Shown here: positions 15,363 to 61,153 of the stretch, piece after piece
Position numbering within the stretch: the stretch's first letter is position 1
Layout of the letters: each line of letters starts with the position of its first letter
Origin: an uncultured Rhodospirillales bacterium
GTDB lineage: Bacteria > Pseudomonadota > Alphaproteobacteria > JAWKYA01
Reading direction: 5' to 3'
DNA length: 64,000 bases
Assembly: GCA_964397465.1 (NCBI GenBank)
Contig: CAYNIC010000002.1
Location: forward strand, 52,162-116,161
The notes under the pieces: generated by a model
The model's input: only the letters and a program-made list of their open reading frames with translations
What the model was told of the DNA's origin: nothing
Database searches by the model: none
Position numbers and translations under genes: made by a program

Positions 15363-16529
15363 TTAAAGAGGCGTTGGTTTATCGCCCGACAGAATATGGG
15401 TGCAGCCAAGGCGTCGCGCTTCTGCTGTGCTATCCTTGGTTTTCGTCAATCCCATCACCGTTATCCAGCCTTCTTTATGCAAGGCCGCTCTGCGGGCGGG
15501 ATCAGTATCAAGAGGAAGAAAAAGACGTTGTGTCGGCACCGGTGCGGGAAGGGCTCGTAAGATTGAATCCATATATAAGGTGACTCCGCAAGCAGGCTCT
15601 CCTGCGGATTCTTCGGCAATGGAAATAAGATAATCGCCGCCCCGTCCCAGCTCGCCCCGTACGCCGCGCGCGAACAGGGTAAAGGCGATGCCTTGTTCAT
15701 AAGAGAAGCCCCGGCGCTCGACATAATCGACTGTCAAAGTGAGATTGGGCAAAGCGGCCGAAACTTGACGGATGACGTCCTTCAGACGTTGCGCGATAGC
15801 CCGGGCCTGGGCGGGTAACGAAATTTTGTCTAAGGCGGCCAAGGCAGAGGTTACAGGGCCGCAAGCACCGATCAATGCCGCAAGGGTTTTACCATCAGCG
15901 CCGCCAAGCTTGGTGACGGCGTCGATGTCGCGACGATCAAGCGCTTGATACAGGTCGTAGGAAATCTCAGGCCCTTTATTGAGAATAAGTGGCACAAGTC
16001 CGGGCAAGGCGATATCGACGGAAAGACCGGCGACCTTGAGATGCTGCAGAGCCTCGGCTGCCAAGATAATGACCTCGGCATCGGCGGTCGCCGCGTCGAT
16101 GCCGATCAGCTCGGCGCCGACTTGAGCGAACTGCCGTTCCGGCCGAAGCTGCGTGCCCTTAACCCGTAACACTTGGCCGGCGTAGGACAGGCGAAGCGGC
16201 CGGGAGATTTTAGCAAGACGCGTTGCGGCGATTCGGGCCACCTGAACCGTGATGTCGGCGCGAACCCCCATCATACGCTGAGAGACCGGGTCCATTAATC
16301 GAAAGGTTTGCGCCGCCATGGCGGCGCCGGTTCCGGCGAGAAGACCCGTTTCAAACTCAATCAAAGGCGGTTTTACCCGTTCATATCCATAGCTGCGAAA
16401 ACTCGCGACCAAGGTTTCAATCGCGGCGGCTTCCTGTTCCGCCATGGGTGGCAAAACATCGCCCAATCCCGCCGGAAGAAGAGCGGCGGCAGTCGTCGCA
16501 GAATCTGAGTCTTTGGATCTCTGCACCAT
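15363..16529 (-). CDS. hisZ: ATP phosphoribosyltransferase regulatory subunit HisZ (HisRS paralogue)
   Basis: 388 aa. N-terminal LLPAGLGDVLPP, a HisS-like class II core without an anticodon-binding domain, and a typical HisZ length. Confidence 0.75.
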   Translation of the reverse strand: MVQRSKDSDSATTAAALLPAGLGDVLPPMAEQEAAAIETLVASFRSYGYERVKPPLIEFETGLLAGTGAAMAAQTFRLMDPVSQRMMGVRADITVQVARIAATRLAKISRPLRLSYAGQVLRVKGTQLRPERQFAQVGAELIGIDAATADAEVIILAAEALQHLKVAGLSVDIALPGLVPLILNKGPEISYDLYQALDRRDIDAVTKLGGADGKTLAALIGACGPVTSALAALDKISLPAQARAIAQRLKDVIRQVSAALPNLTLTVDYVERRGFSYEQGIAFTLFARGVRGELGRGGDYLISIAEESAGEPACGVTLYMDSILRALPAPVPTQRLFLPLDTDPARRAALHKEGWITVMGLTKTKDSTAEARRLGCTHILSGDKPTPL

Positions 16530-18163
16530 TATTTAGGGTCGCTCGATTTGATCCCTGTGCGAGAGCGCGAGGGTTCGGGTTCAATTTTTACGGGCGGTTT
16601 ATAAGGTTGCGGCGCTGCAGTCGGCTTGTTCGAAGGTAAAGGGGTCCCGGGCCGATCGCTTGTCACGTCGCCCAAGGGTTTCGTCACTTTGGGAGCGGCA
16701 GGCGCAACATAGGCTTCGGGCGAGCGAATGATCGGGGTTCCCGGGGCCGGCGGCGGTGGCGTTTTAGGCAATCCATCTCCCACGGCGACGGTCAGCATCC
16801 CATTTGCCATGAAGGTGACGGCACCATGGCCCTCTTTGTCGTAAAGCGGGTACATTGGCCCGGTAAAAGGCGCAGGGAGAAGCTGCTTGCCAAGATCAAG
16901 AAAATCATCGCCCCACAAGGTGACAATGCGCAGGTTCCGACGATCAAAATCCGGGACCACAATGTCGGGCCGGCCGTCGCCGTTCATATCGACAACGGTG
17001 CCCAAGTCCGGCTCCTGGGTGCCGAAGACATGGTTGCTAAATCCATTGGCCGTGGCTATAGGCACCAAAGCCTCGTCCTGATATCTGAACAAAGTCAGAA
17101 TGCCCACCTCATGAGGCATCATGACCGCGACGACTTCCAATTTTTTGTCGCCGTCGAAATCGGCAAACCCAACCGGATTCATCCAGCGCATCGGCACGCC
17201 CACGGCGGCGCTTTGTGCCAATAACTCCAGCTTGCCGTCGCGCAACCCCAAAATGGCCAAGGCGGAGCCGTAGTCTATAAAAGAACGGACCACGATCACC
17301 TCGTCCCGCCCGTCGCCATCGATGTCGATCAGGCGCGGCATGACATCTTCTATGACCGCTTCGCGATGTTCAAGATAGGTAAAGATCTTGCCGTTACGAT
17401 CCCGTATCTCGACTCCATCCGCTTCAATCCGATCACCCAAGGCGCCGTGACGGTACTGTGCGGTGGGCTGAACCAGGTAGGCGGAGGCAATGTCTTTTTG
17501 TCCATAGGTCACGCGTGATCCTGAAAGAATGGTATATTCGGAAGTTACCGGCTTGGGCGACGGCGGCGACCGTTCTTCTTGAATAAGCTGGGGCGTTCCG
17601 TTGACAAGCTCTAATCGGAAGCTGCGACCTGTTCGGTCTTTGACCAAGGCGGTGCCATCACCTTTAGGCGATAATATATCTACCTGCCCCGGAGCGTTGA
17701 CGGTAATACCCGGAACGTTGACGGTAATGAAGCGGAGCTTACCCTGAGGGACGGTCGGCTTGGCGATCGGCGCCACCTCGCCGGCCACTGGTGCCGTACT
17801 TGCCGGTGCGGCAATGGCGGGTGAAGTTGGCGCTCCTGTCGGCCGCAACGGTGTTGCCGGTGATGCAGGGGTTGTGGTCGGCGTTGCCGGTGCTTCCGGC
17901 TTCGGCGGCGTGAGAACAACACCAGGTGCTGCGCCAGGTGTTGCTGGCCGCGAAGGTGTCGTTGCGGTTGGCGCTTCAGGTTTTGGCGGAGTTAAAACGG
18001 GCGCGGGAGAAGACGGAGAGGTTGCCGGCGGTGGAAAGGGTTTCGGCTCTGCTGAGGGCGCAGAGGATGAAGGTGGTGTCTGAGCAAAACTCATAGAGGT
18101 CAAGCTGACCGCGACGGCGATGGTGATTGCGGTTAAAAAGTATAAGGGGGATAAACGAACCAT
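16529..18163 (-). CDS. Secreted FG-GAP/beta-propeller repeat protein with Pro/Thr/Ala-rich tandem repeats
   Basis: A signal peptide, then a ~120 aa P/T/A-rich linker with VLTPPKPEAP repeats. Four DxDGDGxDE-type Ca-binding FG-GAP-like repeats follow (DIDGDGRDEVIV, FDGDKKLEV, MNGDGRPDIVV). The C-terminus is Pro-rich. Confidence 0.6.
   Translation of the reverse strand: MVRLSPLYFLTAITIAVAVSLTSMSFAQTPPSSSAPSAEPKPFPPPATSPSSPAPVLTPPKPEAPTATTPSRPATPGAAPGVVLTPPKPEAPATPTTTPASPATPLRPTGAPTSPAIAAPASTAPVAGEVAPIAKPTVPQGKLRFITVNVPGITVNAPGQVDILSPKGDGTALVKDRTGRSFRLELVNGTPQLIQEERSPPSPKPVTSEYTILSGSRVTYGQKDIASAYLVQPTAQYRHGALGDRIEADGVEIRDRNGKIFTYLEHREAVIEDVMPRLIDIDGDGRDEVIVVRSFIDYGSALAILGLRDGKLELLAQSAAVGVPMRWMNPVGFADFDGDKKLEVVAVMMPHEVGILTLFRYQDEALVPIATANGFSNHVFGTQEPDLGTVVDMNGDGRPDIVVPDFDRRNLRIVTLWGDDFLDLGKQLLPAPFTGPMYPLYDKEGHGAVTFMANGMLTVAVGDGLPKTPPPPAPGTPIIRSPEAYVAPAAPKVTKPLGDVTSDRPGTPLPSNKPTAAPQPYKPPVKIEPEPSRSRTGIKSSDPK
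17880..18000. repeat. In-frame tandem repeat of about 81 nt inside the FG-GAP gene
   Basis: GGTGCTTCCGGCTTCGGCGGCGTG and GGCGCTTCAGGTTTTGGCGGAGTT are repeated. They encode two copies of VLTPPKPEAP...TP on the minus strand. Confidence 0.5.
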
Positions 18164-19760: not shown

Positions 19761-20921
19761 CTAAGCGGCGGCTTTATTACGAACGACTTCACCATAGGCC
19801 CACTCCAGCCATGGCATAAGGGCGGCAAGATCCGCCGCATCAACCGTCGCCCCGCACCAAATGCGCAAGCCTGCGGGGGCGTCACGGTAACTGGCAATAT
19901 CAAAGGCAATCTTTTCAGACTCAAGTTTCCCTACCAGATCTTTAACCGCCGCTTGTTGTCCTGCATCATCCAGAGACGTGAACCAAGGTGCGGTAATCTT
20001 GAGGCACACAGAAGTAGGAGAGCGCGTTTTTTCGTCGACGCTTAAAAAATCGATCCAGTCGGTTTTTTTGACCCAGGCATCGATCGTGTTAAAATTGGCG
20101 CTCGTGCGGGCGATCAATCCTTTGAGGCCGCCGATGGACTCAGCCCAGGCCAATCCATCCAAAGCATCGGCGACGCACAGCATCGAGGGCGTATTAATCG
20201 TCTCGCCGCTAAAAATTCCCTCGATTAATTTTCCGCCTTTTGTCAGCCGAAAGATCTTCGGGAGCGGCCACGCCGGTGAATAGGATTGCAGACGCTCGAC
20301 CGCTCGCGGTGAAAGGGCGATCATGCCGTGACCCGCTTCTCCTCCCAAAACTTTTTGCCAGGACCAAGTCACCACGTCGAGTTTATCCCACGGCAAATCC
20401 ATGGCGAAAGCGGCCGAGGTCGCGTCGCAAATCGTTAATCCCTGACGATTTTTTTTGATCCAATTGCCATCAGGAATCCGCACACCGGAGGTCGTTCCAT
20501 TCCAGGTAAAAACAACGTCACGATCGGTGTCGACCTTGGTAAGGTCAGGCAAGTATCCGTAATCGGCTTGATGATTTCTGACATCGGCGAGTTTGAGTTG
20601 CTTCACCACATCGGTGACCCACTCGCCGCCAAAGCTGTCGAAGGCGACCATATCGATGCCGCGGCCGCCAAGAAGAGACCATAAGGCCATTTCGACCGCA
20701 CCGGTATCCGACGCCGGAACGATACCCAAACGGTAATCGGCGGGCATGTTCAGGATCATCTTTGATCGGATGATCACATCATTCAAGGCGGCTTTGCCGG
20801 ACTTAGCGCGGTGGGATCGTCCAAGTACGGCGCTCTTCAGAGAATCCAACGACCATCCCGGCCGCTTGGCGCAGGGACCGGAAGAGAAAAATGGACGGGC
20901 CGGACGAAGCTTCGGCAGCAT
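19761..20921 (-). CDS. serC: Phosphoserine aminotransferase
   Basis: 386 aa. N-terminal RPxxFSSGPC and a class V aminotransferase fold. It sits directly upstream of serA on the same strand. Confidence 0.85.
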
Positions 20922-23943: not shown

Positions 23944-25323
23944 ATGACCTGGACTCCTGTAATTGCCGATCGCACCGGCCCGATCTATCGCTCGATTGCC
24001 GATGCCTTGGCTGAGGATGTAGCGCAAGGCCGCTTAAAGCCGGGCACGCGGCTGCCGACCCATCGCGATTTGGCTTATCGGTTAGGCGTTACCATTGGCA
24101 CGATCACCCGCGCCTATGCCGAAGGGGAAAAACGCGGCCTCCTGGCCGGGGAGGTGGGTCGCGGCACCTTTGTCCGTCCGTCGACGAACAATATTATGAT
24201 CGAAGATCAATCCTCGGAGCCGATCAATTTGACAACAGTGGTGCCGGGGACCGTCGCGACCGTCGCCCCCATAGTTGCGGCGAAAATGAAAGCCGTCGCT
24301 GAAGATCAAAATTTTTTTAGTCTTTTGACCTACCATCCCTATGGCGGCAGTGAACGGCATCGCGCGGCCGGGGCGGTGTGGATGCAGTCCTTGGGAATCG
24401 AGGCTGATCCTGCCCGCGTTTTAATCTCCGCCGGGGCGCAGCATGGGATTTTAATCGCCTTTGCCGCCTTGGCCCGCGCCGGCGATACCGTGGTTTCCGA
24501 ATGTTTATCCTATGGCAGCGTGCGGTCGACCGCCGAGCTTCTAGGTTTGAAATTACGCGGCTTGGCGATGGACGAGCACGGGCTGCTTCCCGATGCCTTC
24601 GATGCGGCATGCCGAAGCGGCAAGGTGCGGATCGTTTATTGCCTGCCGACCCTGCATAATCCCACGACCTTGATCATGCCCCCGGATCGTCGGGCGGCGA
24701 TCGCCGACATCGCCCGGCGGCATGACGTCATGATTGTTGAGGACGATATCTACCGGCCCTTGGCCAAGAATCCGCCGCCGCCGATTTCGTTCTATGCGCC
24801 CGAGCGTACGGTGACGATCGCCGGGTTATCCAAGGCCTTGATGCCGGGGTTGCGGGTGGCTTATCTCCATGGCCAGGCGGCCGTATCCGGCGCCTTGGCC
24901 GGCGCGGTGCGGGCGAGTGTCATGATGACGAACCCGATCATCAATGAAGTCGCCGCGCAGTTGATTGAAAGCGGTGATGCGGCGCGAATCATGCAGGCTA
25001 ATCGTGTCGATGCGGCGCAGCGGCAGCAGATTGCCCGCCGGATTATGCCGAGGGTTTTTGACCGGTGCGAAGCCGAAGCCGCTCATCTCTGGCTGCCTCT
25101 GCCGGCACCGTGGACGTCGGCCAATTTTATTGCCATTGCCCGCGAACGCGGCGTCAGCATCTGGCCGGCGGAAAGTTTTTATCATGGTCTTGGATCGCCG
25201 CCGGCTGCCGTTCGCTTGGGTCTGGGTGCTACGGGATCGCACGAGCGGCTGCAGCGGGCGCTAATCATTCTGCGTGAATTGCTGCAAAGCGATCCGATGG
25301 CGGAAACTGCGCCGGTCGTGTAG
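23944..25323 (+). CDS. MocR/GabR-family transcriptional regulator (GntR HTH plus PLP-dependent aminotransferase-like domain)
   Basis: N-terminal wHTH (IYRSIADALAEDVAQGRLKPGTRLPTHRDLAYRLGVTIGTITRAY), then a ~350 aa type-I aminotransferase fold. Confidence 0.85.
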   Translation: MTWTPVIADRTGPIYRSIADALAEDVAQGRLKPGTRLPTHRDLAYRLGVTIGTITRAYAEGEKRGLLAGEVGRGTFVRPSTNNIMIEDQSSEPINLTTVVPGTVATVAPIVAAKMKAVAEDQNFFSLLTYHPYGGSERHRAAGAVWMQSLGIEADPARVLISAGAQHGILIAFAALARAGDTVVSECLSYGSVRSTAELLGLKLRGLAMDEHGLLPDAFDAACRSGKVRIVYCLPTLHNPTTLIMPPDRRAAIADIARRHDVMIVEDDIYRPLAKNPPPPISFYAPERTVTIAGLSKALMPGLRVAYLHGQAAVSGALAGAVRASVMMTNPIINEVAAQLIESGDAARIMQANRVDAAQRQQIARRIMPRVFDRCEAEAAHLWLPLPAPWTSANFIAIARERGVSIWPAESFYHGLGSPPAAVRLGLGATGSHERLQRALIILRELLQSDPMAETAPVV

Positions 25324-25329
25324 GACGCT

Positions 25330-26154
25330 TTAACGCTTTGCGGGAAAAGCATTCACGGTATGAAGATGATTGAGCGGCCCATGACCATGGCCAAGCCCGG
25401 GTGCGGTGCGGATGGCCTCCATCACGTAAGCGCGCGCGCGCCGAACGGCCGCGTCAATATTTAAACCTTGGGCGAGACCGGTGGCAATCGCCGAGGCCAA
25501 GGTGCATCCAGTGCCATGGGTATGCGCTGTCTCGATGCGTCGGTCTTCAAATCGCAGACACCCTGTTGCCGTCACCAAAACATCGATGATGCGATCGCCG
25601 GTTAAGTGACCGCCCTTCACCAACACGGCCTGCGGACCAAAGGCCAATAAGGCTTCACCGGCCCGCTGCATCTCTGTTTCATTCTGAACGGAAAATCCAA
25701 CCAGAGTTTCGGCTTCAGGCAGGTTAGGGGTCAAAACCGTCGCGAGCTTCAGTAGCTTATGTTTCAAGGCGGCACCGGCGTCGGGCTGCAACAAGGCCTG
25801 CCCGCCCTTGGCTATCATAACCGGATCGACGACGACGGCCGCGCGAGAGCAATACTGCCGCAGGGCGCCAACTACCGTCTCGATGACGGCTGTGTTATGC
25901 AGCATGCCGGTTTTGACGACATCGACGCCGATATCCTCCGCCACCAAAGAGATTTGCTGCCGGATAAAATCCGTCGGCACATCGTGAATGCCGAACACAC
26001 CTTGCGTATTTTGCGCGGTTAGAGCGGTGATGGCGGTCATCGCGTAGCCGCCCAAGGCTGTGACGGTTTTGATGTCGGCTTGGATTCCTGCGCCGCCACC
26101 GGAATCCGATCCCGCAACGATCAAGACCCGAGCCGGTTTCGAAGAAATGCTCAC
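25330..26154 (-). CDS. thiD: Hydroxymethylpyrimidine/phosphomethylpyrimidine kinase
   Basis: 274 aa with [20 protein letters not shown] at the N-terminus. GTG start overlapping the glmM stop. Confidence 0.85.
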
Positions 26155-40317: not shown

Positions 40318-41154
40318 TCAGTCAGCGGCAAAAGCTTGCGCATAAGGCGGGTGTTGCTGGCTTAAGCATCCGCCCAATCGGATGGGATTTATTCTGACGG
40401 CAAGACCGGTTTTCGAGTCCGTCTCGATGAACACGCCGCATAAAGTGGCGTCACCCTCTGCCGGCGCAGGGCGATCGGTTGGCATTTTAGACCGAAAACG
40501 AGCAACAGGGACGCTTTTTTTCATCCCGATGACGCTGTCATAGTCGCCACACATGCCGGCATCACTTTGAAAGGCGGTGCCGTGCGGAAGAAGCCGGCCG
40601 TCGGCGGAAGGAACATGGGTGTGGGTACCGATCACCAGCGAAACCCGGCCATCCAAATGATGAGCAAGGGCCTGCTTCTCGCTGGTCGCTTCGGCATGGA
40701 TGTCGACTACGATCGCCGCCATGTCCTTACCTAACGGATGATCATGGAGGATCTGATCCACAGCGGCGAAGGGGTCTTCCAAAGGCTCCATGAAAAGACG
40801 TCCCATGACGTTAATAACAAGAACCTGCTGACCTTGAGGCGTGGTGCGAATAACCCACCCGCTCCCCGGCGTGCCGTTGGGAAAGTTCGCCGGCCGCAAT
40901 AAACGTGCGTCATCGGCGATATAAGCGATTGTTTCGCGCTGGTCCCAAACGTGATTACCCGTGGTTACGACATCGACCCCGGCCGCATAAAATTCGGCGC
41001 AGATGGCGCTGGTGATGCCAAAGCCATGAGCGGCGTTTTCGCCGTTAACAATCACAAGATCGAGATTGAGATTTTTGCGAAGCCGCGGAATTTCATTGGT
41101 GACGACAGTGCGACCTGACCGGCCCATGACGTCGCCGCAGAATAAAAGTCTCAT
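40318..41154 (-). CDS. TIGR00282/YmdB-like metallophosphoesterase
   Basis: MRLLFCGDVMGRSGR...GNHVWDQ calcineurin-like phosphoesterase motifs. Confidence 0.75.
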   Translation of the reverse strand: MRLLFCGDVMGRSGRTVVTNEIPRLRKNLNLDLVIVNGENAAHGFGITSAICAEFYAAGVDVVTTGNHVWDQRETIAYIADDARLLRPANFPNGTPGSGWVIRTTPQGQQVLVINVMGRLFMEPLEDPFAAVDQILHDHPLGKDMAAIVVDIHAEATSEKQALAHHLDGRVSLVIGTHTHVPSADGRLLPHGTAFQSDAGMCGDYDSVIGMKKSVPVARFRSKMPTDRPAPAEGDATLCGVFIETDSKTGLAVRINPIRLGGCLSQQHPPYAQAFAAD

Positions 41155-41738
41155 GCGCTGTCGTCCGGATGAATAATTCCATTTTCTGTGGCTATGTAAT
41201 CAAGGCGCACATCCGTGGATTCGAGAGGAATAGCGGAAATCTCTTGCGCGGCGAAGGCGATTCCGATGGCTAAGAAACCAGGATTTTGCTGCCGTAAAAC
41301 AGGAATGGAGCGATCGTAAAACCCACCGCCATAGCCTAGACGGTATCCGCGCCGGTCGAAGGCCAGTTGCGGAACAAGAAGAATGGAAGGAATTTGCGGT
41401 TCCGCGTCGGGACAAGGCTCAAAGGTGCCAAATGCGCCGGCGCGCATTGTTTCGCCGGGCTGCCACGCGCGAAAGACGAGCGGCGCTTCGGCGCGTTCCA
41501 CGGCGGGCATCGCCAACCGTTGACCCCGAAGATGAAGCGCCTGAAGGAGTGGCCGGATGTCGATTTCAGAACTGATCGGCCAGTAGCCGGCGATGCAAAC
41601 GTCGGGCTGGAGAAGATTGCTTTTCAATAAATGATCGCGCAGCGCCAAGGCTTTGGTTTCGCGGCCGACTACGGCCGCGCGTTGTCTTGTGGTTTCACCG
41701 CGGAGGCGGCGTTTGAAATCGGTGATGTTTTCTGTCAT
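41151..41738 (-). CDS. ygfA: 5-formyltetrahydrofolate cyclo-ligase (ygfA)
   Basis: 195 aa with an ...IAGYWPISSEIDIRPLL motif. Confidence 0.8.
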   Translation of the reverse strand: MTENITDFKRRLRGETTRQRAAVVGRETKALALRDHLLKSNLLQPDVCIAGYWPISSEIDIRPLLQALHLRGQRLAMPAVERAEAPLVFRAWQPGETMRAGAFGTFEPCPDAEPQIPSILLVPQLAFDRRGYRLGYGGGFYDRSIPVLRQQNPGFLAIGIAFAAQEISAIPLESTDVRLDYIATENGIIHPDDSA

Positions 41739-41747
41739 GCAATCCTA

Positions 41748-41908
41748 AAAGAGTGCCGCGCCAGCCGTTGACCGTTTCTATCCACTTGGGCCTGCCATAG
41801 CAGGTGGGCGCCATGTACCAAAGCCAAGGCTCTGGCAGGGACAGCTCCCATAGTGTGGAAATTGGCCCCAGGGAATGAGTGGTCTGACGTACTGGGCAGC
41901 ACCAAGAC
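41748..41908 (-). ncRNA. ssrS: Candidate 6S RNA (SsrS)
   Basis: A 174-nt non-coding gap in the conserved zapA-ssrS-ygfA position. In the minus-strand transcript the 5' GUGCUGCC can pair with the 3' GGCGCGGCAC to form a closing stem, as expected for 6S. No ORF. Confidence 0.45.
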
Positions 41909-53497: not shown

Positions 53498-54757
53498 TTA
53501 GCCGGTCGCTTGGGTCTTACCGCCTTCGGTGATGCGGAGGGTTGCCCACACTTCTTGAAGTGCCGTCACCAGCTGATCGATCATTGCGTTGCTATGAAGA
53601 GGAGATAAGGTGATCCGCAACCGCTCATTCCCGCGGGGGACGGTCGGATAATTGATCGGTTGGATATAGATCTTGTGTTCATGGAGCAATCGATCCGCCG
53701 CGGCCTTGCATAAAACAGCATCGCCAATGGGAACTGGCACGATATGGGTTGTGCTGGGCAGGCAGGGCAGTCCGGCCGCAGTTAGCCGTGTCTTCAGATA
53801 GCGGGTTTGCTCGTGCAAGGCTTGGCGTTCGCTATCGCATGATCGCAAATGCCGGATGCTGGCTAACGCGCCGGCGGCAAGCGCAGGCGGCATGGCAGTG
53901 GTAAAGATAAATCCGGGCGCGTAAGAACGTACCGCATCGCATAAGACCGAGGATGCCGCAATATAACCGCCTTGCAACCCGAAAGCCTTGCCGAGAGTTC
54001 CTTCGATGACGTCGATCCGATCCATAACCCCGTCGCGGGCGGCGATCCCGGCGCCGCCGGGGCCGTACATGCCGACGGCATGAACTTCATCAAGATAGGT
54101 CAGCGCTTCATAGCGTTCAGCCAGATCGCAGATTTCTTTGATCGGCGCGATATCGCCATCCATGGAGTAGACCGACTCAAAGGCGATCAGCTTGGGCCGC
54201 GAAGGATCTACGCTGCGCAGAAGCGCTTCCAAATGCTCAAGGTCGTTATGGCGGAAAATAAGTTTTTCGCAGCCGCTGCGGCGAATGCCTTCGATCATAG
54301 AGGCGTGATTCAAAGCATCAGAAAAAATCACGCAGCCGGGTAGTAGCCGCGCCAAGACATCCAAAGCCGCTTCGTTCGCCACATAGCCCGACGAGAAAAT
54401 CAGCGCCGCCGCCTTTTGATGGAGCGAGGCGATTTCGGCTTCTACCTCGACAAGGGCATGACTGGTCCCGGAGATATTGCGGGTGCCCCCGGCGCCGGCA
54501 CCATACCTGTCCAGTGCCGCATGCATGGCGGAGAGGACTTTAGGATGTTGCCCCATTCCGAGATAATCATTGGAGCACCAGATAGTGACCTCGTGGCTAC
54601 CGGAAGGGTCGCGGTAAATGGCTTGGGGAAAATCGCCGGCCCGCCGTTCAAGATCGGCAAAAACCCGATACCGGCCCTCAGCCTTCAGCTGGGTAATCCG
54701 GTTGGCAAAAAGGGTCTCGTAGGAAAGGCGCCGCTGACCGGCCATAGTCATGTCCAC
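53498..54757 (-). CDS. hemA: 5-aminolevulinate synthase
   Basis: About 410 aa. [17 protein letters not shown]-terminus and a PLP-lysine region in the alpha-oxoamine synthase fold. The start is ambiguous among GTG 54757, ATG 54751 and ATG 54745. Confidence 0.9.
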
Positions 54758-54895
54758 CCACCGTTGGTTGGTGCCCTATCATGCGACGGCCCGGCCCAGG
54801 GAGCAACCGCCGCAAGACCAAAGATTACCGCGACCAAGCGGCGCAGGACCAGCCTGCGTTGCATAGGGGCGGCTTATCGCGTAGAACCTTGAGAA

Positions 54896-57861
54896 TGACG
54901 CATCGACCTGCAAAGGCCACAAATCATGTCTCTTTGTCACCCCATGTGGCAGATGAGGTTAAGGCGACGACCTGTTATATGTGCGCTTGCCGGTGCGGCA
55001 TTCAAGTTTATGTGAAGAACGACAAAATCCGTTATATCGAGGGCAATCCCAATCACCCGGTGAACCGAGGCGTCTTATGCGCCAAGGGATCGGCCGGAAT
55101 TATGCAGCACTATTCGCCGGCGCGGCTGCGGAAGCCCTTGCTGCGCGTGGGTGAGCGGGGCGAGGGAAAATTTCGCGAAATTAGTTGGGATGAGGCGCTG
55201 GATCTCGCGACGACGTGGCTGGCTGATATTCGCCGGACCGACCCCAAAAAATTGGCTTTCTTCACCGGGCGGGATCAATCCCAATCCTTGACCGGCTGGT
55301 GGGCCAGCCGTTTCGGCACCCCGAACTTTGCCGCCCACGGCGGATTTTGCTCGGTCAATATCGCCGCCGCCGGCATGTATTCTATTGGCGGGTCCTTCTG
55401 GGAATTCGGCGAGGTCGATTGGGAGCACACCCGCTATTTAATGATGTTTGGCGTCGCGGAGGACCATGACTCCAATCCGATAAAGATCGGTCTTGGGTCT
55501 TTACGCAGCAAAGCCCAAGCAAAGATTGTCTCGATCAATCCGGTGCAGACGGGTTATGCCGCCTTGGCCGACGAATGGATCGGCATCCGCCCCGGCAGCG
55601 ACGGGTTGCTGGTCTTTGCCTTGATCCATGAACTGTTAAAGGCCGATAAGGTCGATGGTGAGTTTTTGGCGCGTTATACCAATGCGCCGTGGTTGGTCAT
55701 CGATGCGCCGGGCACCGGGCAACACGGACTCTTCGCCCGCAATGAGGAAGGTCACCCGCTGTGTTTCGATGGTCGTCAGAACAAAATTGTCGATGCTTTG
55801 ACGGCGGAAACACATCCGATTCTGGCGGGTACGCATCAGCTGGCCGACGGAACCAAGGTTGTTCCAGTATTCGAATTGATGGCCCAACGCTATCTTGATC
55901 CGACCTATGCGCCCGAACAAGTTGCGGCGCAAACCGGTATTCCAGCAGAGACGATCCGCCGCTTGGCGGGAGAGCTGGCTCACGCTGCCTTCGCCCAGCA
56001 GGTGGTTCTGGATGTGCCGTGGACCGATTGGGCGGGACGGCGCCATGAGCAAATGATCGGTCGCCCCGTTTCCATTCATGCCATGCGAGGAATCTCCGCC
56101 CACAGTAATGGCTTTGATACCTGCCGTGCCATTCACGTGCTGCAGATGTTGCTGGGCGCCATCGATACGCCGGGTTCGTTCCGGTTCAAGCCGCCCTATC
56201 CGAAATCAGCGCCACCGGGTCCCAAACCCGCCGGTAAAACCACGTCGCCGAATACGGCTTTTGACGGATCACCCTTGGGCTATGTGACGGATCCCGCCGA
56301 TCTATTGCTGGATGACAAAGGCGCCGCGCAAAGAATCGACAAGGCTTATTCCTGGGAGTTTCCCTTCGCCGCTCACGGTTTGCTGCATCTTATGTTGCAC
56401 AATGCCTGGGCGGGCGATCCTTATCGCATCGAGTGTTTGTTTCTGTACATGGCGAACATGGGCTGGAACAGCGCGATGAATATCGAAGGAAGCATTAAAT
56501 ATCTCACCGATAAAAACGCCGACGGCAGTTACCGCATTCCAAAAATTATTTATGTCGACGCTTACAACAGCGAGACCGTCGCCTATGCCGATCTCGTTCT
56601 GCCGGACACGACCTATTTGGAGCGGTGGGATTGCATCTCACTCTTGGACCGGCCGATCTCGCGGCCGGACGGTCCGGCCGATGCAATTCGCCAGCCGGTA
56701 GTAAAGCCCGATCGAGATGTGCGCCCGTTCCAGGATGTGCTGCTGGATCTCGGCGCACGGCTCCATTTGCCGGGTATGGCCGATAGCGGTGGGAAGCCGG
56801 TCTATCCGGGCGGCTATGCGGATTACATGGTCAATCATCAACGCAGTCCCGGGCTCGGCCCGCTTGCCGGGTGGCGGGGCGAGACGCAAGATCAATCGGG
56901 CAAAGGCGCCCCGAATTCGCGGCAGCTCGAGCGTTATATCGACAATGATTGTCATTGGTATGAACCGTTCACGCCATCCCAGCGCTATTTCAAAATGGGC
57001 AACAAGGATTATCTGAATTACGCCCACAAAGTGGGGTGGGTGGCGTCGCCGGATCCGATCATCCTGCAGCTTTATGTTGAGCCGCTGCAAAAGTTCCGTC
57101 TGACGGCCCAAGGTCACGGACCTCATCAGCCGCCGGAGAGCCTGCGGACACGCGTCGCAACCTATTTTGATCCCTTGCCGCGATGGCATCCGCCAGTCGA
57201 TGAAAGCAATTCGGATCATGAAAACTATCCTTTGCACGCGATCACCCAGAGGCCAATGCATATGTATCATTCGTGGGGGTCGCAGAATGCTTGGCTGCGC
57301 CAGATAACCGATCGGAATTATTTGTTCGTTCATAAGGACCGCGCCTGTGATCTTGACTTGAAGGATGGTGATTGGGTTTGGGTAATCAGTCCGCATGGCC
57401 GCCTAAAGGCGCCGATTAAAACCATGACCGGCGTCAATCGCGATACGGTGTGGACGTGGAATGCGATTGGCAAGCGGGCGGGTGCTTGGGGGCTTGATGC
57501 CAATGCACCTGAGGCAACCAAGGGATTTTTGCTTAATCATCTTATTGCCGACCTCTTCCCACCTCGCAAAGGGCGGTCCAGCCTTGCCAATGCCGATCCG
57601 GTGACGGGTCAAGCGGCGTGGTATGATCTGAAGGTTCGCATTAAAAAATGCCTGCCCGAAGAAGCCGAAGAAACAGCGCCACGATTCCCGTCACTGATAA
57701 ACCAAGGATCGCCGGTTCAACCGGCGGTCCTGCGCCAAGGGTTGAATGTGAAGGATACAAAAACATCGGTAACGCCGGTTCCTTTTAGGGAATGGATCGG
57801 CAATGCTGACAGCTATGCCTTGCAGAAGGATAGGCATGCAGAAGACAAGGCGAAACCATGA
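54896..57861 (+). CDS. Molybdopterin (Mo-bisPGD) oxidoreductase catalytic subunit without a Tat signal, SoeA-like
   Basis: 988 aa. An N-terminal CYMCACRCG...LCAKG FS0 cluster motif, then molybdopterin domains. No twin-arginine leader in any frame upstream. Confidence 0.75.
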
Positions 57862-58595
57862 CCAGCCTTCCGCAAAACCCGCCGCCCGTCAAACTGGGAT
57901 TGGTTATCGATTTGGATATCTGCGTAGGCTGTCACGCCTGCGCGGTTTCGTGCAAAGAATGGAACAGCGGCGGCCATTCCGCACCGCTGACCGACTTTGA
58001 TCCCTATGGCGCCCATCCCTCGGGCGTGTGGTTCAATCGGGTGCACAGCTTTGAAGTGGTGGATGATGCCGGAGATGCCAGAACAGTGCATTTTCCAAAA
58101 TCATGTTTGCATTGCGATGATGCGCCGTGCGTCACGGTTTGCCCGACGGGCGCTTCCTACAAACGGGAAGAAGACGGGATTGTCCTTGTCAATGCAGATA
58201 CCTGCATCGGCTGCAAGCTGTGTTCGTGGGCTTGTCCCTATGGGACGCGGGAATATGATGAAGACGCCGGAGTGATGAAAAAATGCACGCTCTGCGTCGA
58301 CAAGATTTACAACGCTAATCTCGAGCCCGCTGCGCGCGTGCCGGCATGCGTATCGGCTTGTCCCACAGGAGCGCGAAGCTTTGGTGATTTGGGTAATCCC
58401 GACAGTGGGGTCTCGCAGTTGGTGGCCTCCCGCGCTGGTTTTGATTTGATGCCCGAACAGGGCTGCCGTCCGGTCAATAAATATCTCCCGCCGCGCCAGC
58501 GCCAGACAACAGGCGATGGAAGACCGTTGACTCCCGTCGTGGCCGATCAAGCGGGTCTGTTGGCGCGCTGGGTTGACCGGATCTTTTCACATTAA
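57858..58595 (+). CDS. 4Fe-4S ferredoxin-type iron-sulfur subunit (DmsB/SoeB-like)
   Basis: Four Cys clusters (CVGCHACAVSC, CLHCDDAPC, CIGCKLCSWACP, CTLCVDK...C). ATGA overlap with the upstream gene. Confidence 0.8.
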   Translation: MTSLPQNPPPVKLGLVIDLDICVGCHACAVSCKEWNSGGHSAPLTDFDPYGAHPSGVWFNRVHSFEVVDDAGDARTVHFPKSCLHCDDAPCVTVCPTGASYKREEDGIVLVNADTCIGCKLCSWACPYGTREYDEDAGVMKKCTLCVDKIYNANLEPAARVPACVSACPTGARSFGDLGNPDSGVSQLVASRAGFDLMPEQGCRPVNKYLPPRQRQTTGDGRPLTPVVADQAGLLARWVDRIFSH

Positions 58596-58606
58596 CCGGC
58601 TACGCC

Positions 58607-59551
58607 ATGCATCCAGCAAAGTCCGTCATTCTTTTTACGACAACTTCCGGCGCCGGGGCGGGACTGTTGATCTGGCTCGGCGTGTTTGGTTTGGCCGGCC
58701 GGCTTCCTGCGGAATTATTTTTTCATTTGACGGTTTTTGGCGCGGCCTTTGTGCTGGTGACCATAGGCCTTCTGTCGTCGGTTTTTCATCTTGGCCACCC
58801 GGAGCGGGCCTGGCGCGCTCTTAGTCAATGGCGATCATCATGGCTGTCGCGCGAAGGGGTCGCGGCGCTTGTCACCTATCCGCTAGCCGGAGGTTACGCG
58901 GCAACGCTTTATGGTTTTGGCTTAACCAATGGAGTCACCAAAGTATTGGGAATTGCCGCCGTCGTCATGGCGATGGTGTTTATTGTCTGCACCGGAATGA
59001 TCTATGCCTCGCTGCGGCCTATCAAGGCCTGGGCCAATCCGTATGTTCCAATCGGGTATTTGCTGTTCGCGCTGATGACCGGGGCTATTCTGCTTGCGGC
59101 CCTGCAAGCCGTATTTGGTGACAACTATGTTCCGACGACGGGCTTTGCTATTGGTCTTTTGGCTATAGGTCTTATGCATAAGTTGGGATACTGGCGGTTC
59201 ATCGATCAAGCCGCGTCTCGCTCAACGCCGGAAACCGCCACCGGCTTGGGTCATTTGGGGCAGGTGCGTCTTTTGGAAGGTCCACATAGCGAGGCGAATT
59301 ACCTGATGCAGGAGATGGGGTTTCGCATCGCTCGCAAACATACGCAGGCTTTGCGGCGTGTGGTTCTTATTGCGGGGTTTGTTTTGCCCAGTCTTTTTTT
59401 GGTCGCCGCACTTGTCTTATCGGCAGCAGGAATAGTTTTTATATCTCTTGCGGCGATATCCTGCGCCTTGGGAATCATTGTCGAGCGCTGGCTGTTTTTT
59501 GCCGAGGCGAAGCATACGGTTGCGATGTATTACGGCGCACCGTCGGCTTAA
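58607..59551 (+). CDS. DmsC/NrfD-type membrane anchor subunit (SoeC-like)
   Basis: 314 aa with about 8 TM helices and a DmsC-like N-terminus. Confidence 0.7.
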   Translation: MHPAKSVILFTTTSGAGAGLLIWLGVFGLAGRLPAELFFHLTVFGAAFVLVTIGLLSSVFHLGHPERAWRALSQWRSSWLSREGVAALVTYPLAGGYAATLYGFGLTNGVTKVLGIAAVVMAMVFIVCTGMIYASLRPIKAWANPYVPIGYLLFALMTGAILLAALQAVFGDNYVPTTGFAIGLLAIGLMHKLGYWRFIDQAASRSTPETATGLGHLGQVRLLEGPHSEANYLMQEMGFRIARKHTQALRRVVLIAGFVLPSLFLVAALVLSAAGIVFISLAAISCALGIIVERWLFFAEAKHTVAMYYGAPSA

Positions 59552-59554
59552 CAT

Positions 59555-61153
59555 CTACTGCATCTGCTCTTTGGTCGACAAAAACCGCACCGTTGGAAAA
59601 TCCTCTTGTGCCCGATTAAGGTGCCAGGCATTACGTGCGAGATAAACCGGTGCGCCGTCATGATCTTCGGCCATATTGGCGCTATTGGCATCGCTGAACG
59701 CTTTAAGCTTGAGGTTGTCGTCGGCTTCAACCCACCGTGCCGTGTAAAGGTTTGATGGTTCAAACCGCACCGGAACGTCATATTCGGTGCGGATACGATC
59801 CGCTAACACTTCAAACTGCAGAGGCCCCACAGCACCGACAATAAACCCCTGATCAAGACGCGCGCGGAATACACGGGCGGCGCCTTCCTCGGCCAATTGC
59901 TGCAAGGCCTTGCCCAGATGCTTGGCGCGCATCGGATCTTCGGGACGCACACGTTGCAAAATTTCCGGCGCAAAGCTGGGGATGCCGACAAAGCGCAAAA
60001 GCTCGCCCTCGGTTAGGGCATCACCAATGCGCAGATTGCCATGATTAGGCAAGCCGACAATATCGCCGGGAAAGGCGCTTTCCGCCACTTCCCGGTCTTG
60101 GCCCAAAAACATCAGCGGATTATGCATCAAGGTCCACTTATTCGATCGTACATGAAGCAATTTCATGCCGCGTTTGAAGGCGCCGGAACAAATCCGCACA
60201 AAGGCCAACCGGTCCCGGTGGCGTGGGTCCATATTAGCCTGGATTTTGAACACAAAACCGGTCACTTTATTTTCGTCAGGTTTGACAATCCGGTTGTCGG
60301 CACATTTTTGCGGCCGCGGTGTCGGTGCGTAGCGCGCCAAGCCATCCAGCAACTCACGCACGCCGAAGTTATTGACCGCGCTGCCGAAAAACACCGGCGT
60401 CATATGGCCTTCAAGATAGGCTTCTTCGGAAAATTTCGGCATCAGCTGGCGGACCATCTCGGCCTGTTCACGCAACTCGGCCAGTGCATCTGCCGGCAAC
60501 AACTTATCCAACTTAGGATCGGTAAGTCCCTCGCAGGTTTCTCCCGCTTCGGGCAGGCTGCCTTTCTTCGCAGCGCGTTCCAGCAAGGCCAGACGGTCAT
60601 TCAACAAATCATAGCAGCCGAGGAAACTTCGGCCCATGCCGATCGGCCAGGTTGCGGGCGACAGATCCAGCGCCAGTTCGCGCTCGATCTCGCTGATCAG
60701 ATCAAAGGGGTCGCGGCCTTCACGGTCCAGCTTGTTGATGAAGGTGATGATCGGCACATCCCGCAGCCGGCAAATCTCAAATAGTTTCCGCGTGCGGTCT
60801 TCGATGCCCTTGGCGGCGTCGATCACCATCACCGCCGAATCAACCGCGGTCAGGGTGCGGTAGGTGTCTTCACTGAAATCTTCGTGGCCGGGCGTATCCA
60901 AAAGATTAAAAATTGCCGGACCATAGTCAAAGGTCATGACCGAGGTTGCGACCGAGATGCCGCGTTCTCGTTCGACTTTCATCCAGTCGGATCGCGCGCG
61001 TCGCGCATCCCCCCGCGCCTTGACGGCGCCGGCCAATTGAATCGCGCCGCCGAACAACAGCAGCTTTTCGGTTAGGGTAGTTTTGCCCGCGTCAGGATGG
61101 GAGATGATGGCGAAGGTTCTTCGCCGCGCAATCTCCGAGGTCAGGTTTGTCAT
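59555..61153 (-). CDS. prfC: Peptide chain release factor 3
   Basis: RRTFAIISHPDAGKTTLTEKLL GTPase. 532 aa. Confidence 0.95.
   Translation of the reverse strand: MTNLTSEIARRRTFAIISHPDAGKTTLTEKLLLFGGAIQLAGAVKARGDARRARSDWMKVERERGISVATSVMTFDYGPAIFNLLDTPGHEDFSEDTYRTLTAVDSAVMVIDAAKGIEDRTRKLFEICRLRDVPIITFINKLDREGRDPFDLISEIERELALDLSPATWPIGMGRSFLGCYDLLNDRLALLERAAKKGSLPEAGETCEGLTDPKLDKLLPADALAELREQAEMVRQLMPKFSEEAYLEGHMTPVFFGSAVNNFGVRELLDGLARYAPTPRPQKCADNRIVKPDENKVTGFVFKIQANMDPRHRDRLAFVRICSGAFKRGMKLLHVRSNKWTLMHNPLMFLGQDREVAESAFPGDIVGLPNHGNLRIGDALTEGELLRFVGIPSFAPEILQRVRPEDPMRAKHLGKALQQLAEEGAARVFRARLDQGFIVGAVGPLQFEVLADRIRTEYDVPVRFEPSNLYTARWVEADDNLKLKAFSDANSANMAEDHDGAPVYLARNAWHLNRAQEDFPTVRFLSTKEQMQ

What the first reader, a model, noticed from the sequence alone, without database searches (positions are those of the whole stretch)
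54896..59551. Tat-less three-subunit molybdoenzyme (SoeABC-like cytoplasm-facing sulfite dehydrogenase?) divergent from hemA
The catalytic subunit has the FS0 Cys motif and molybdopterin fold but no twin-arginine leader. I checked all three frames upstream of the conserved core. The Fe-S subunit also lacks a leader. Together with the NrfD/DmsC-type membrane anchor, this matches the known SoeABC family of cytoplasm-oriented sulfite:quinone oxidoreductases rather than periplasmic DMSO, polysulfide or tetrathionate reductases. It shares a divergent promoter region with hemA (ALAS), which hints at co-regulation.
Basis: partly seen in the sequence, partly recalled or inferred. Interest (0 to 1): 0.5.

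Follow-up and report, generated by a model that had tools for sequence, protein, structure and literature searches.

The report
Cytoplasm-facing SoeABC-type sulfite dehydrogenase operon
This is an ordinary three-gene operon for a membrane-bound molybdenum enzyme of the known SoeABC type, which most likely oxidises sulfite inside the cell and passes the electrons to quinone. The only unusual points are its place among housekeeping genes and a strongly conserved stretch of DNA just upstream.

Summary
They lie divergent from hemA.

Neither A nor B has a Tat leader. No hydrophobic segment precedes the first Fe-S cysteine, whereas the E. coli DmsA control has one. The same holds for 80 genomic and 118 database relatives.

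The lysine/arginine distribution puts the anchor's termini and large loops in the cytoplasm: 17 vs 2 here, and the same bias in 63/63 homologues. E. coli DmsC shows the opposite bias. This is the inverted topology proposed for SoeC.

Homologues 63-69% identical are named SoeA and SoeC by JGI. Tat-bearing relatives appear only at 45% identity or below. No named reductase family reaches its NCBIfam cut-off.

I could not align the proteins with the characterised SoeABC enzymes, so that link is indirect. The activity is inferred.

hemA adjacency occurs only in close relatives (0 of 80 others), so the co-regulation idea is untested. A ~95-nt conserved non-coding block in the intergenic region remains unexplained.

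Verdict: new member of a known kind; low interest.

The parts
54895..57861 (+). soeA: catalytic Mo-bisPGD subunit, 988 aa, 110 kDa, no signal peptide
   Evidence: Pfam Molybdop_Fe4S4, Molybdopterin and Molydop_binding. Best solved relative is T. thermophilus PsrA, 2vpw_A, 8e-50. Homologues 63-69% identical are named SoeA by JGI. Start at ATG 54895: homologues begin 5-15 residues before the conserved 'xDTSPxVSDEVK' block. After this ATG the indels are in frame (12 and 18 nt); just before it, L084 has a 2-nt indel.
54973..55080 (+). FS0 [4Fe-4S] motif of SoeA: C27-x2-C30-x3-C34-x27-C62
   Evidence: Codons checked. TTCYMCACRCG is identical in all 80 genomic relatives.
55348..55350 (+). Cys152 codon of SoeA, the predicted molybdenum ligand
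   Evidence: Aligns with Cys173 of PsrA (2vpw_A) in the HMMER alignment. 100% conserved in 121 sequences. That Cys173 is the Mo ligand of PsrA is from my own knowledge. The bSreA/SoeA lineage is listed as Cys-ligated in PMC10100899.
57858..58595 (+). soeB: electron-transfer subunit with four [4Fe-4S] motifs, 245 aa, no signal peptide. Its start overlaps the soeA stop (ATGA).
   Evidence: Pfam Fer4_11 and Fer4_7. 16 Cys in four groups: 22/25/28/32, 83/86/91/95, 116/119/122/126 and 143/146/164/168. N-terminus conserved from the Met in 70/70 homologues.
58607..59551 (+). soeC: cofactor-less 8-helix NrfD/PsrC/DmsC-type quinone-binding anchor, 314 aa, predicted N-in/C-in
   Evidence: Pfam DmsC 1.3e-20. 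AlphaFold2 model has pLDDT 85 and pTM 0.85 with 8 long helices. Best PDB fold match is PsrC, 2vpw_C, then ACIII ActC. K+R count is 17 on the N-terminal-side loops vs 2 on the other side; 63/63 homologues show the same bias; E. coli DmsC shows the opposite. Some homologues are named SoeC by JGI.
54776..54870 (.). Conserved non-coding block in the hemA/soeA intergenic region. The core, 54826-54868, contains the inverted repeat CGCAGG-N5-CCTGCG. Function unknown; possibly an operator or promoter region.
   Evidence: Nearly invariant in 4 relatives, including one whose SoeA is only 77% identical. No Rfam match. Absent from the 80 other soeABC loci. No consistent ORF on either strand and no consistent RNA fold.
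53498..54757 (-). hemA (5-aminolevulinate synthase): the divergent neighbour, not part of the enzyme
   Evidence: TIGR01821, 653.5 bits vs cut-off 338.55. Adjacent to soeA only in close relatives.

Best explanation
The three genes form a soeABC operon for a membrane-bound sulfite:quinone oxidoreductase whose catalytic side faces the cytoplasm.

**Proposed mechanism.**
- SoeA binds Mo-bisPGD through Cys152, plus one [4Fe-4S] cluster (FS0). It oxidises cytoplasmic sulfite to sulfate.
- The electrons pass along the four [4Fe-4S] clusters of SoeB.
- SoeA and SoeB fold and receive their cofactors in the cytoplasm and are never exported, so they need no Tat leader.
- SoeC sits in the membrane upside-down relative to PsrC and DmsC, so that it can dock them.

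**Shown here.** Subunit set and order, cofactor motifs, absence of leaders across the clade, inverted charge bias of SoeC, NrfD/PsrC fold, and membership of a tight Tat-less clade whose members are annotated SoeA and SoeC.

**Inferred.** The substrate (sulfite), the direction of the reaction, the quinone as acceptor, and the source of the sulfite in this organism.
For: - **Architecture and motifs:**. The calculated sizes of 110.0, 26.3 and 33.5 kDa fit what I recall for A. vinosum SoeABC (about 109, 27 and 36 kDa; from memory, not checked here).
- **Tat-less in this sequence:** KD12 of 0.17 before FS0, against 1.57 for the E. coli DmsA control.
- **Tat-less across the clade:** upstream in-frame stops lie as close as 21-30 codons to the first Cys, there is no conserved RR motif in 80 genomes, and 0 of 118 database homologues is Tat-like. 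The SoeB start is conserved from the Met in 70/70.
- **SoeC topology:** K+R of 17 vs 2. In 63/63 homologues the bias is the same (median 19 vs 2). The DmsC control is reversed, 4 vs 8. This matches the inverted orientation proposed for SoeC in PMC8076601.
- **SoeC fold:** the best PDB match of the model is PsrC.
- **SoeC conserved residues:** S6, H61, S78, S81, E83, T129, R221, E236, R294 and H303 coincide, at a constant offset of 0, -4 or -3, with residues listed for A. aeolicus SoeC aq_1231: Ser6, His65, Ser82, Ser85, Glu87, Thr132, Arg224, Glu239, Arg297 and His306.
- **Names:** JGI calls homologues 63-69% identical SoeA, and homologues of C that are 53-56% identical SoeC.
- **Gene order:** soeA-B-C is kept in about 75 of 80 genomes from Alpha- and Gammaproteobacteria.
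- **Mo ligand:** Cys152 aligns with PsrA Cys173 and is invariant. PMC10100899 lists bSreA/SoeA as cytoplasmic, Cys-ligated and a tight family that mostly collapses at 50% identity.
- **Context in some relatives:** sulfite-linked neighbours occur, namely TauE/SafE exporter (6 loci), MocR-type regulator (12), alanine dehydrogenase (6), class-III aminotransferase (4) and sulfur dioxygenase (3).
Against: - I could not align the proteins directly with the characterised enzymes (A. vinosum Alvin_2491-89, R. pomeroyi SPO3559-57, A. aeolicus aq_1234/32/31). Their sequences could not be fetched, so orthology rests on annotation and indirect residue matching.
- NCBIfam has no SoeA model, so no curated cut-off was passed.
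- Nothing in the 64-kb window makes or handles sulfite. It holds only housekeeping genes.
- The A. aeolicus homologue was first described as a sulfur reductase, and bSreA clusters with SoeA. Activity on other sulfur compounds, or in the reverse direction, is therefore not excluded.
- The topology is a positive-inside prediction, not a measurement.
Confidence: 0.85

Rival explanations
1. A periplasmic, Tat-exported reductase of the Psr/Phs/Dms/Ttr type whose leader is hidden by a mis-called start or a frameshift.
For: The nearest named families and the nearest solved structure are PhsA/PsrA. The anchor matches Pfam DmsC. The longest ORF adds 38 residues that contain RR dipeptides.
Against: - No hydrophobic h-region exists in any frame upstream of FS0.
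- The 38-residue extension lies in a block that is out of frame in L084, through a 2-nt indel.
- Relatives have stops 21-30 codons before the first Cys, which leaves no room for a leader.
- SoeB also lacks a leader.
- SoeC has the opposite charge bias to DmsC.
- Scores are far below the PhsA (238 vs 694), DmsA (150 vs 778) and TtrA (123 vs 1750) cut-offs.
- Tat-bearing relatives are at most 45% identical.
Confidence: 0.02
2. A true member of the cytoplasm-facing bSreA/SoeA clade that acts on another substrate or in the other direction. An example would be quinol- or NAD(P)H-linked reduction of sulfur, polysulfide or tetrathionate, as first reported for the Aquifex enzyme.
For: bSreA (Aquifex sulfur reductase) clusters with SoeA in one lineage. 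There is no sulfite-producing pathway in the window. No activity was measured here.
Against: - The Aquifex complex is now described as the sulfite:quinone oxidoreductase SoeABC (Boughanemi 2020, cited in PMC8076601).
- Genetic evidence in A. vinosum assigns sulfite oxidation to SoeABC (Dahl 2013, cited).
- The family is tight, at 59-69% identity across classes, which argues for one conserved function.
- Some relatives sit next to TauE, a sulfur dioxygenase or taurine-type genes, all of which produce or handle sulfite.
Confidence: 0.1
3. A decaying or silent remnant that was inserted between hemA and prfC and is no longer functional.
For: It sits isolated among housekeeping genes. No sigma-70-like promoter or terminator was found by the simple scans.
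Against: - All three ORFs are intact, and every cofactor ligand is kept.
- The arrangement and the ORFs are preserved in relatives down to 77% identity. Substitutions are typical of coding constraint and the indels are in frame.
- A and B are translationally coupled through an ATGA overlap.
Confidence: 0.03

Closest known systems
SoeABC sulfite:quinone oxidoreductase (Allochromatium vinosum Alvin_2491-2489; Ruegeria pomeroyi SPO3559-3557; Aquifex aeolicus aq_1234/1232/1231)
   Same: - Three subunits in the order A-B-C.
- A Mo-bisPGD subunit with FS0 and a Cys ligand, a subunit with four [4Fe-4S] clusters, and a haem-less NrfD-type anchor.
- No Tat or Sec leaders.
- Anchor predicted N-in, that is, inverted.
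- Similar subunit sizes.
- Homologues 53-69% identical are annotated SoeA and SoeC.
- Conserved SoeC residues coincide with those listed for aq_1231.
   Different: - Not next to dsr, sHdr or xsc-pta-tauR genes as in the model organisms. Here it lies between hemA and prfC, among housekeeping genes.
- It is preceded by a lineage-specific conserved ~95-nt block.
- Direct percent identity to the characterised proteins was not measured.
Polysulfide/thiosulfate reductase PsrABC/PhsABC (T. thermophilus 2VPW; Salmonella PhsABC)
   Same: Closest solved structures for A (8e-50) and C (fold match TMt 0.65). Same cofactor layout and Cys Mo ligand. Best-scoring NCBIfam family.
   Different: - PsrA is Tat-exported and periplasmic, with the PsrC termini on the P-side.
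- Here there is no leader and the topology is opposite.
- SoeA is about 220 residues longer.
- The PhsA score is 238 bits against a cut-off of 694.
E. coli DMSO reductase DmsABC
   Same: Three-subunit complex iron-sulfur molybdoenzyme. C matches Pfam DmsC, and B's best NCBIfam match is DmsB.
   Different: DmsA has the SRRGLV Tat leader with an h-region, and DmsC has the opposite K+R bias. The DmsA family score is 150 vs 778.
Unnamed Tat-bearing relatives of SoeA (P0254, P0317, P0385; 35-39% identical)
   Same: Nearest sequence relatives outside the SoeA clade. P0254 and P0317 share the long SoeA-like architecture, at 1183 and 1452 aa.
   Different: They carry clear twin-arginine leaders (RRRHFLQGAG.., TRRDFLKITG.., SRRDFAKLVAG..) and reach no named NCBIfam family.

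Membership tests
SoeABC | Three-gene unit: MopB catalytic subunit, ferredoxin-type subunit with four [4Fe-4S] clusters, and a haem-less NrfD/PsrC-type membrane anchor | tested here: met
   The order A-B-C is conserved in about 75 of 80 related genomes.
SoeABC | No Tat or Sec signal on SoeA and SoeB (cytoplasmic catalytic side) | tested here: met
   KD12 of 0.17 vs 1.57 for the DmsA control. All three frames read. Clade-wide.
SoeABC | SoeC inverted relative to PsrC and DmsC (termini and docking loops on the N-side) | tested here: met
   Positive-inside count of 17 vs 2; 63/63 homologues agree; the DmsC control is reversed. This is a prediction, not an experiment.
SoeABC | FS0 [4Fe-4S] motif and a Cys ligand to Mo in SoeA | tested here: met
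   C27/C30/C34/C62. Cys152 aligns with PsrA Cys173 and is invariant.
SoeABC | Clusters with characterised SoeA (Alvin_2491, SPO3559, aq_1234) in a MopB phylogeny | not testable with these tools
   The reference sequences could not be retrieved. The single genome scan returned the 80 closest genomes, which include Paracoccaceae, Roseicyclus and Rhodobacterales at 59-62%, but none of the model strains. Indirect support: JGI SoeA and SoeC names on close homologues, the match to aq_1231 residues, and the tight bSreA/SoeA family described in PMC10100899.
SoeABC | Sulfite-dependent quinone reduction | not testable with these tools
   Needs a biochemical assay.
SoeABC | Genomic link to a cytoplasmic sulfite source (dsr, sHdr, xsc/taurine, pdo). 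Supportive rather than defining. | tested here: inconclusive
   None in the 64-kb window. Present next to soeABC in a minority of relatives: TauE 6, MocR-type regulator 12, AlaDH 6, aminotransferase 4, sulfur dioxygenase 3.
PsrABC/PhsABC | Tat leader on the catalytic subunit, and a score above the PhsA equivalog cut-off | tested here: not met
   No leader. NF012032 scores 237.6 bits vs cut-off 694.
DmsABC/YnfEFGH | Tat leader on DmsA, and a score above the TIGR02166 cut-off | tested here: not met
   149.5 bits vs 777.7. The leader is absent, whereas the E. coli DmsA control has one.
TtrABC | A score above the TtrA and TtrB equivalog cut-offs | tested here: not met
   TtrA 122.9 vs 1750; TtrB 122.3 vs 416.

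The most novel reading that the evidence does not exclude
In this uncultured alphaproteobacterial lineage, soeABC has become a fixed housekeeping-locus gene set, kept between hemA and prfC. It would be controlled together with hemA through the lineage-specific, nearly invariant ~95-nt intergenic element. That would couple haem synthesis to sulfite oxidation or detoxification by a new regulator-binding site or RNA element. Alternatively, the enzyme may have a substrate other than sulfite.
Probability: 0.1. Interest if true: 0.45.

Novelty: new member of a known kind. Interest (0 to 1): 0.2.

Why it matters
It gives a function to genes that NCBI labels only 'molybdopterin oxidoreductase family protein' and 'DmsC/YnfH family anchor'. 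It implies that this uncultured alphaproteobacterium can dispose of, and gain electrons from, sulfite made inside the cell.

It also gives a cheap sequence-only check for the orientation of enzymes of this class: a leader test against a control, plus the charge bias of the anchor.

The biology itself is already known. SoeABC is widespread in Proteobacteria.

Tried and rejected
- **Fetching reference sequences.** I tried to obtain A. vinosum, R. pomeroyi or A. aeolicus SoeA for a direct alignment. The one genome-contig scan returned only the 80 closest genomes. The primary paper (Dahl 2013) is not held. The representative search gives no names.\n- **RNA families.** An Rfam search of the intergenic block found only a chance DnaX match (E = 5.3).\n- **RNA structure of the block.** There was no covariation with 4 sequences, and the folding z-scores were inconsistent: -2.4 in the window and -0.1 in L084.\n- **Coding readings of the block.**\n - The + strand ORF is out of frame with SoeA in L084.\n - The - strand small ORF (MQRRLVLRRL...) does not keep its stop or its residues.\n - Both readings were rejected.\n- **Metagenome scan for the block core.** Only 2 hits, both from the same lineage. 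nhmmer found the block near no other soeABC locus.\n- **Promoter and terminator scans.** Nothing useful.\n- **Neighbour clustering in 80 loci.** No universally conserved neighbour.


Full report
**What is there.**

The region holds three co-directional ORFs on the + strand:
- A: longest ORF 54781-57861.
- B: 57858-58595.
- C: 58607-59551.

hemA lies divergently at 53498-54757. It is a 5-aminolevulinate synthase (TIGR01821, 653 bits against a cut-off of 339). prfC lies convergently, 3 nt after C.

- A carries the Pfam domains Molybdop_Fe4S4, Molybdopterin and Molydop_binding.
- B carries ferredoxin-type dicluster domains.
- C matches Pfam DmsC (1.3e-20) and, weakly, NrfD.
- A has the FS0 motif C27-x2-C30-x3-C34-x27-C62.
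- B has 16 cysteines in four groups, enough for four [4Fe-4S] clusters.
- The stop of A overlaps the start of B (ATGA), and C starts 11 nt after B.

The one slip is that the ATG is at 54895, not 54896.

**Which start codon.**

Public gene calls use the ATG at 54781, giving 1026 aa (P0001). I prefer 54895, for three reasons.
- In 80 related genomes the conserved protein begins about 15 residues before the first Cys ('xDTSPxVSDEVKxTTCYMCACRCG'). The start codons lie 5-15 residues before that block.
- Among close relatives, the indels after 54895 are 12 and 18 nt, so they stay in frame. L084 has a 2-nt indel just before this ATG, which puts the upstream stretch out of frame.
- P0003, the 77%-identical relative, starts at the equivalent ATG.

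The choice does not affect the Tat question.

**Tat test.**

All three frames upstream of FS0 were read.
- The in-frame extension has RR dipeptides but no hydrophobic segment. The best 12-residue Kyte-Doolittle mean before the first Cys is 0.17.
- The E. coli DmsA control, fetched for this purpose, has SRRGLV followed by an h-region scoring 1.57.
- The other two frames end in stop codons.
- In several relatives an in-frame stop lies only 21-30 codons before the first Cys, which leaves no room for a leader.
- None of 118 full-length database homologues has a Tat-like N-terminus. The median is 27 residues before the first Cys.
- SoeB begins 'MT(S/C)LP..KLGLVIDLD.CVGC' in 70/70 homologues, conserved from the Met itself.

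A search of 1.84 billion cluster representatives showed where leaders appear.
- Full-length relatives at 56% (P0241) and 44% (P0247) identity have no leader.
- P0254 (39%), P0317 (36%) and P0385 (35%) have clear twin-arginine leaders.
- P0246 (45%) begins with what looks like the hydrophobic part of a signal peptide.

The window protein therefore sits well inside a Tat-less clade.

**Orientation of the anchor.**

A hydropathy scan finds 8 transmembrane peaks in C.
- Lys+Arg on the loops that lie on the same side as the N-terminus number 17, against 2 on the other side.
- E. coli DmsC, whose termini are periplasmic by established knowledge, gives the opposite result with the same script: 4 vs 8.
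- All 63 homologues with 8 peaks share the bias, with a median of 19 vs 2.
- By the positive-inside rule, the termini and the two large conserved loops (residues 61-84 and 196-250) face the cytoplasm.

This is the inverted orientation that the NrfD-family review proposes for SoeC alone among NrfD-like subunits (PMC8076601).

An AlphaFold2 model built on 44 sequences (pLDDT 85, pTM 0.85) has eight long helices. Its best PDB fold match is PsrC (2vpw_C), followed by ActC of alternative complex III.

The positions that are at least 95% conserved in the SoeC alignment include S6, H61, S78, S81, E83, T129, E236, R294 and H303. R221 also fits the pattern but falls just below that level. The review lists, for A. 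aeolicus SoeC (aq_1231), Ser6, His65, Ser82, Ser85, Glu87, Thr132, Arg224, Glu239, Arg297 and His306. The two sets coincide at constant offsets of 0, -4 and -3. This is an indirect match by numbering, not an alignment.

**Family placement.**

- No NCBIfam model reaches its cut-off: PhsA 238 vs 694, DmsA 150 vs 778, TtrA 123 vs 1750, ArrA 110 vs 1600. That library seems to hold no SoeA model.
- The closest solved structure is PsrA (8e-50). Its Cys173 aligns with Cys152 in 'GGFCSVN', which is invariant in 121 sequences.
- More than 8000 database proteins match. The top hits are 63-69% identical, and several carry the JGI name 'sulfite dehydrogenase (quinone) subunit SoeA'.
- Likewise, hits to C at 53-56% identity are named SoeC.
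- The genome scan found homologues 59-66% identical in Kiloniella, Mesorhizobium, Azospirillum, Xanthobacter, Roseomonas, Paracoccaceae, Lysobacter and Tahibacter. The A-B-C order is kept in about 75 of 80.
- A published MopB phylogeny describes a bSreA/SoeA lineage that is cytoplasmic, Cys-ligated and so uniform that 50% clustering removes nearly all members (PMC10100899). That fits what I see.

The literature assigns cytoplasmic sulfite oxidation to SoeABC in A. vinosum, R. pomeroyi and A. aeolicus.

I could not obtain those reference sequences, so direct orthology was not tested.

**Context.**

The 64-kb window holds housekeeping genes only:
- class II ribonucleotide reductase, dksA, recA, alaS, purA and serA;
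- ftsH, tilS, the tol-pal genes and ruvAB;
- 6S RNA, glycolytic genes and pfk.

No sulfur or sulfonate genes are present.

In the 80 related loci no neighbour is universal. Minorities have:
- a divergent MocR-type GntR regulator (12 loci; by my knowledge the taurine regulator TauR is of this type);
- a TauE/SafE sulfite exporter (6);
- alanine dehydrogenase (6);
- a LysR regulator (5);
- a class-III aminotransferase (4);
- a sulfur dioxygenase (3).

In R. pomeroyi, soeCBA lies next to pta and tauR. These links to sulfite-producing routes are supportive but weak.

**hemA and the intergenic region.**

hemA is adjacent to soeA in 0 of 80 genomes. The whole hemA-soeABC-prfC arrangement is kept in the nearest relatives: L082/L083 (85%) and L084 (77%, from MAG GCA_041396725.1). 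The short contig L087 carries the same hemA-soeA junction.

In these relatives a ~95-nt block (54776-54870) is more conserved than the flanking coding DNA. Its core, TTACCGCGACCAAGCGGCGCAGGACCAGCCTGCGTTGCAT, differs at one base in four lineages and holds a 6-bp inverted repeat.
- It has no Rfam match.
- It has no consistent ORF on either strand.
- It shows no covariation and no consistent folding signal.
- It is absent from the other soeABC loci.
- It is rare in metagenomes.

My best guess is a DNA-level control region shared by the divergent genes. Co-regulation is possible but untested.

**Verdict.**

This is a SoeABC-type, cytoplasm-facing sulfite:quinone oxidoreductase operon (confidence 0.85). 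It is a new member of a known and widespread family. The interest is low.

Noticed in passing
window 54776-54870: A ~95-nt non-coding block between hemA and soeA is nearly invariant in four relatives, down to 77% SoeA identity. It contains the inverted repeat CGCAGG-N5-CCTGCG. It has no Rfam match and is not found at other soeABC loci. Its function is unknown.
   Followed up: partly
window 54781-54894: Public gene calls (P0001, 1026 aa; P0002, 1029 aa) start SoeA 38 codons too early, inside the conserved non-coding block. This is probably a mis-annotated start.
   Followed up: yes
window 41749-41905 (-): A 6S RNA gene (RF00013, 79.5 bits) lies directly beside a 5-formyltetrahydrofolate cyclo-ligase gene (41151-41738). 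This is the classical ssrS-ygfA pairing.
   Followed up: no
P0246, P0254, P0317 (database proteins, 36-45% identical to SoeA): These long (1074-1452 aa) SoeA-like proteins carry twin-arginine or signal-like leaders and match no named NCBIfam family. They may be a periplasmic sister group of SoeA with unknown function.
   Followed up: partly
window 23944-25323 (+) and 25330-26154 (-): A MocR-type (GntR + aminotransferase) regulator lies next to a phosphomethylpyrimidine/pyridoxal-type kinase, about 30 kb from soeABC. It is probably a PdxR-like vitamin B6 regulator and not linked to soeABC.
   Followed up: no
window 16529-18163 (-) and 19761-20921 (-): Two sizeable ORFs have little or no Pfam signal. 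The 544-aa ORF has only an FG-GAP repeat, and the 386-aa ORF has no family at E <= 1e-5. They sit among amino-acid and purine biosynthesis genes.
   Followed up: no
window 59551-59555: soeC and the convergent prfC end only 3 nt apart, and no terminator-like hairpin was detected between them.
   Followed up: no
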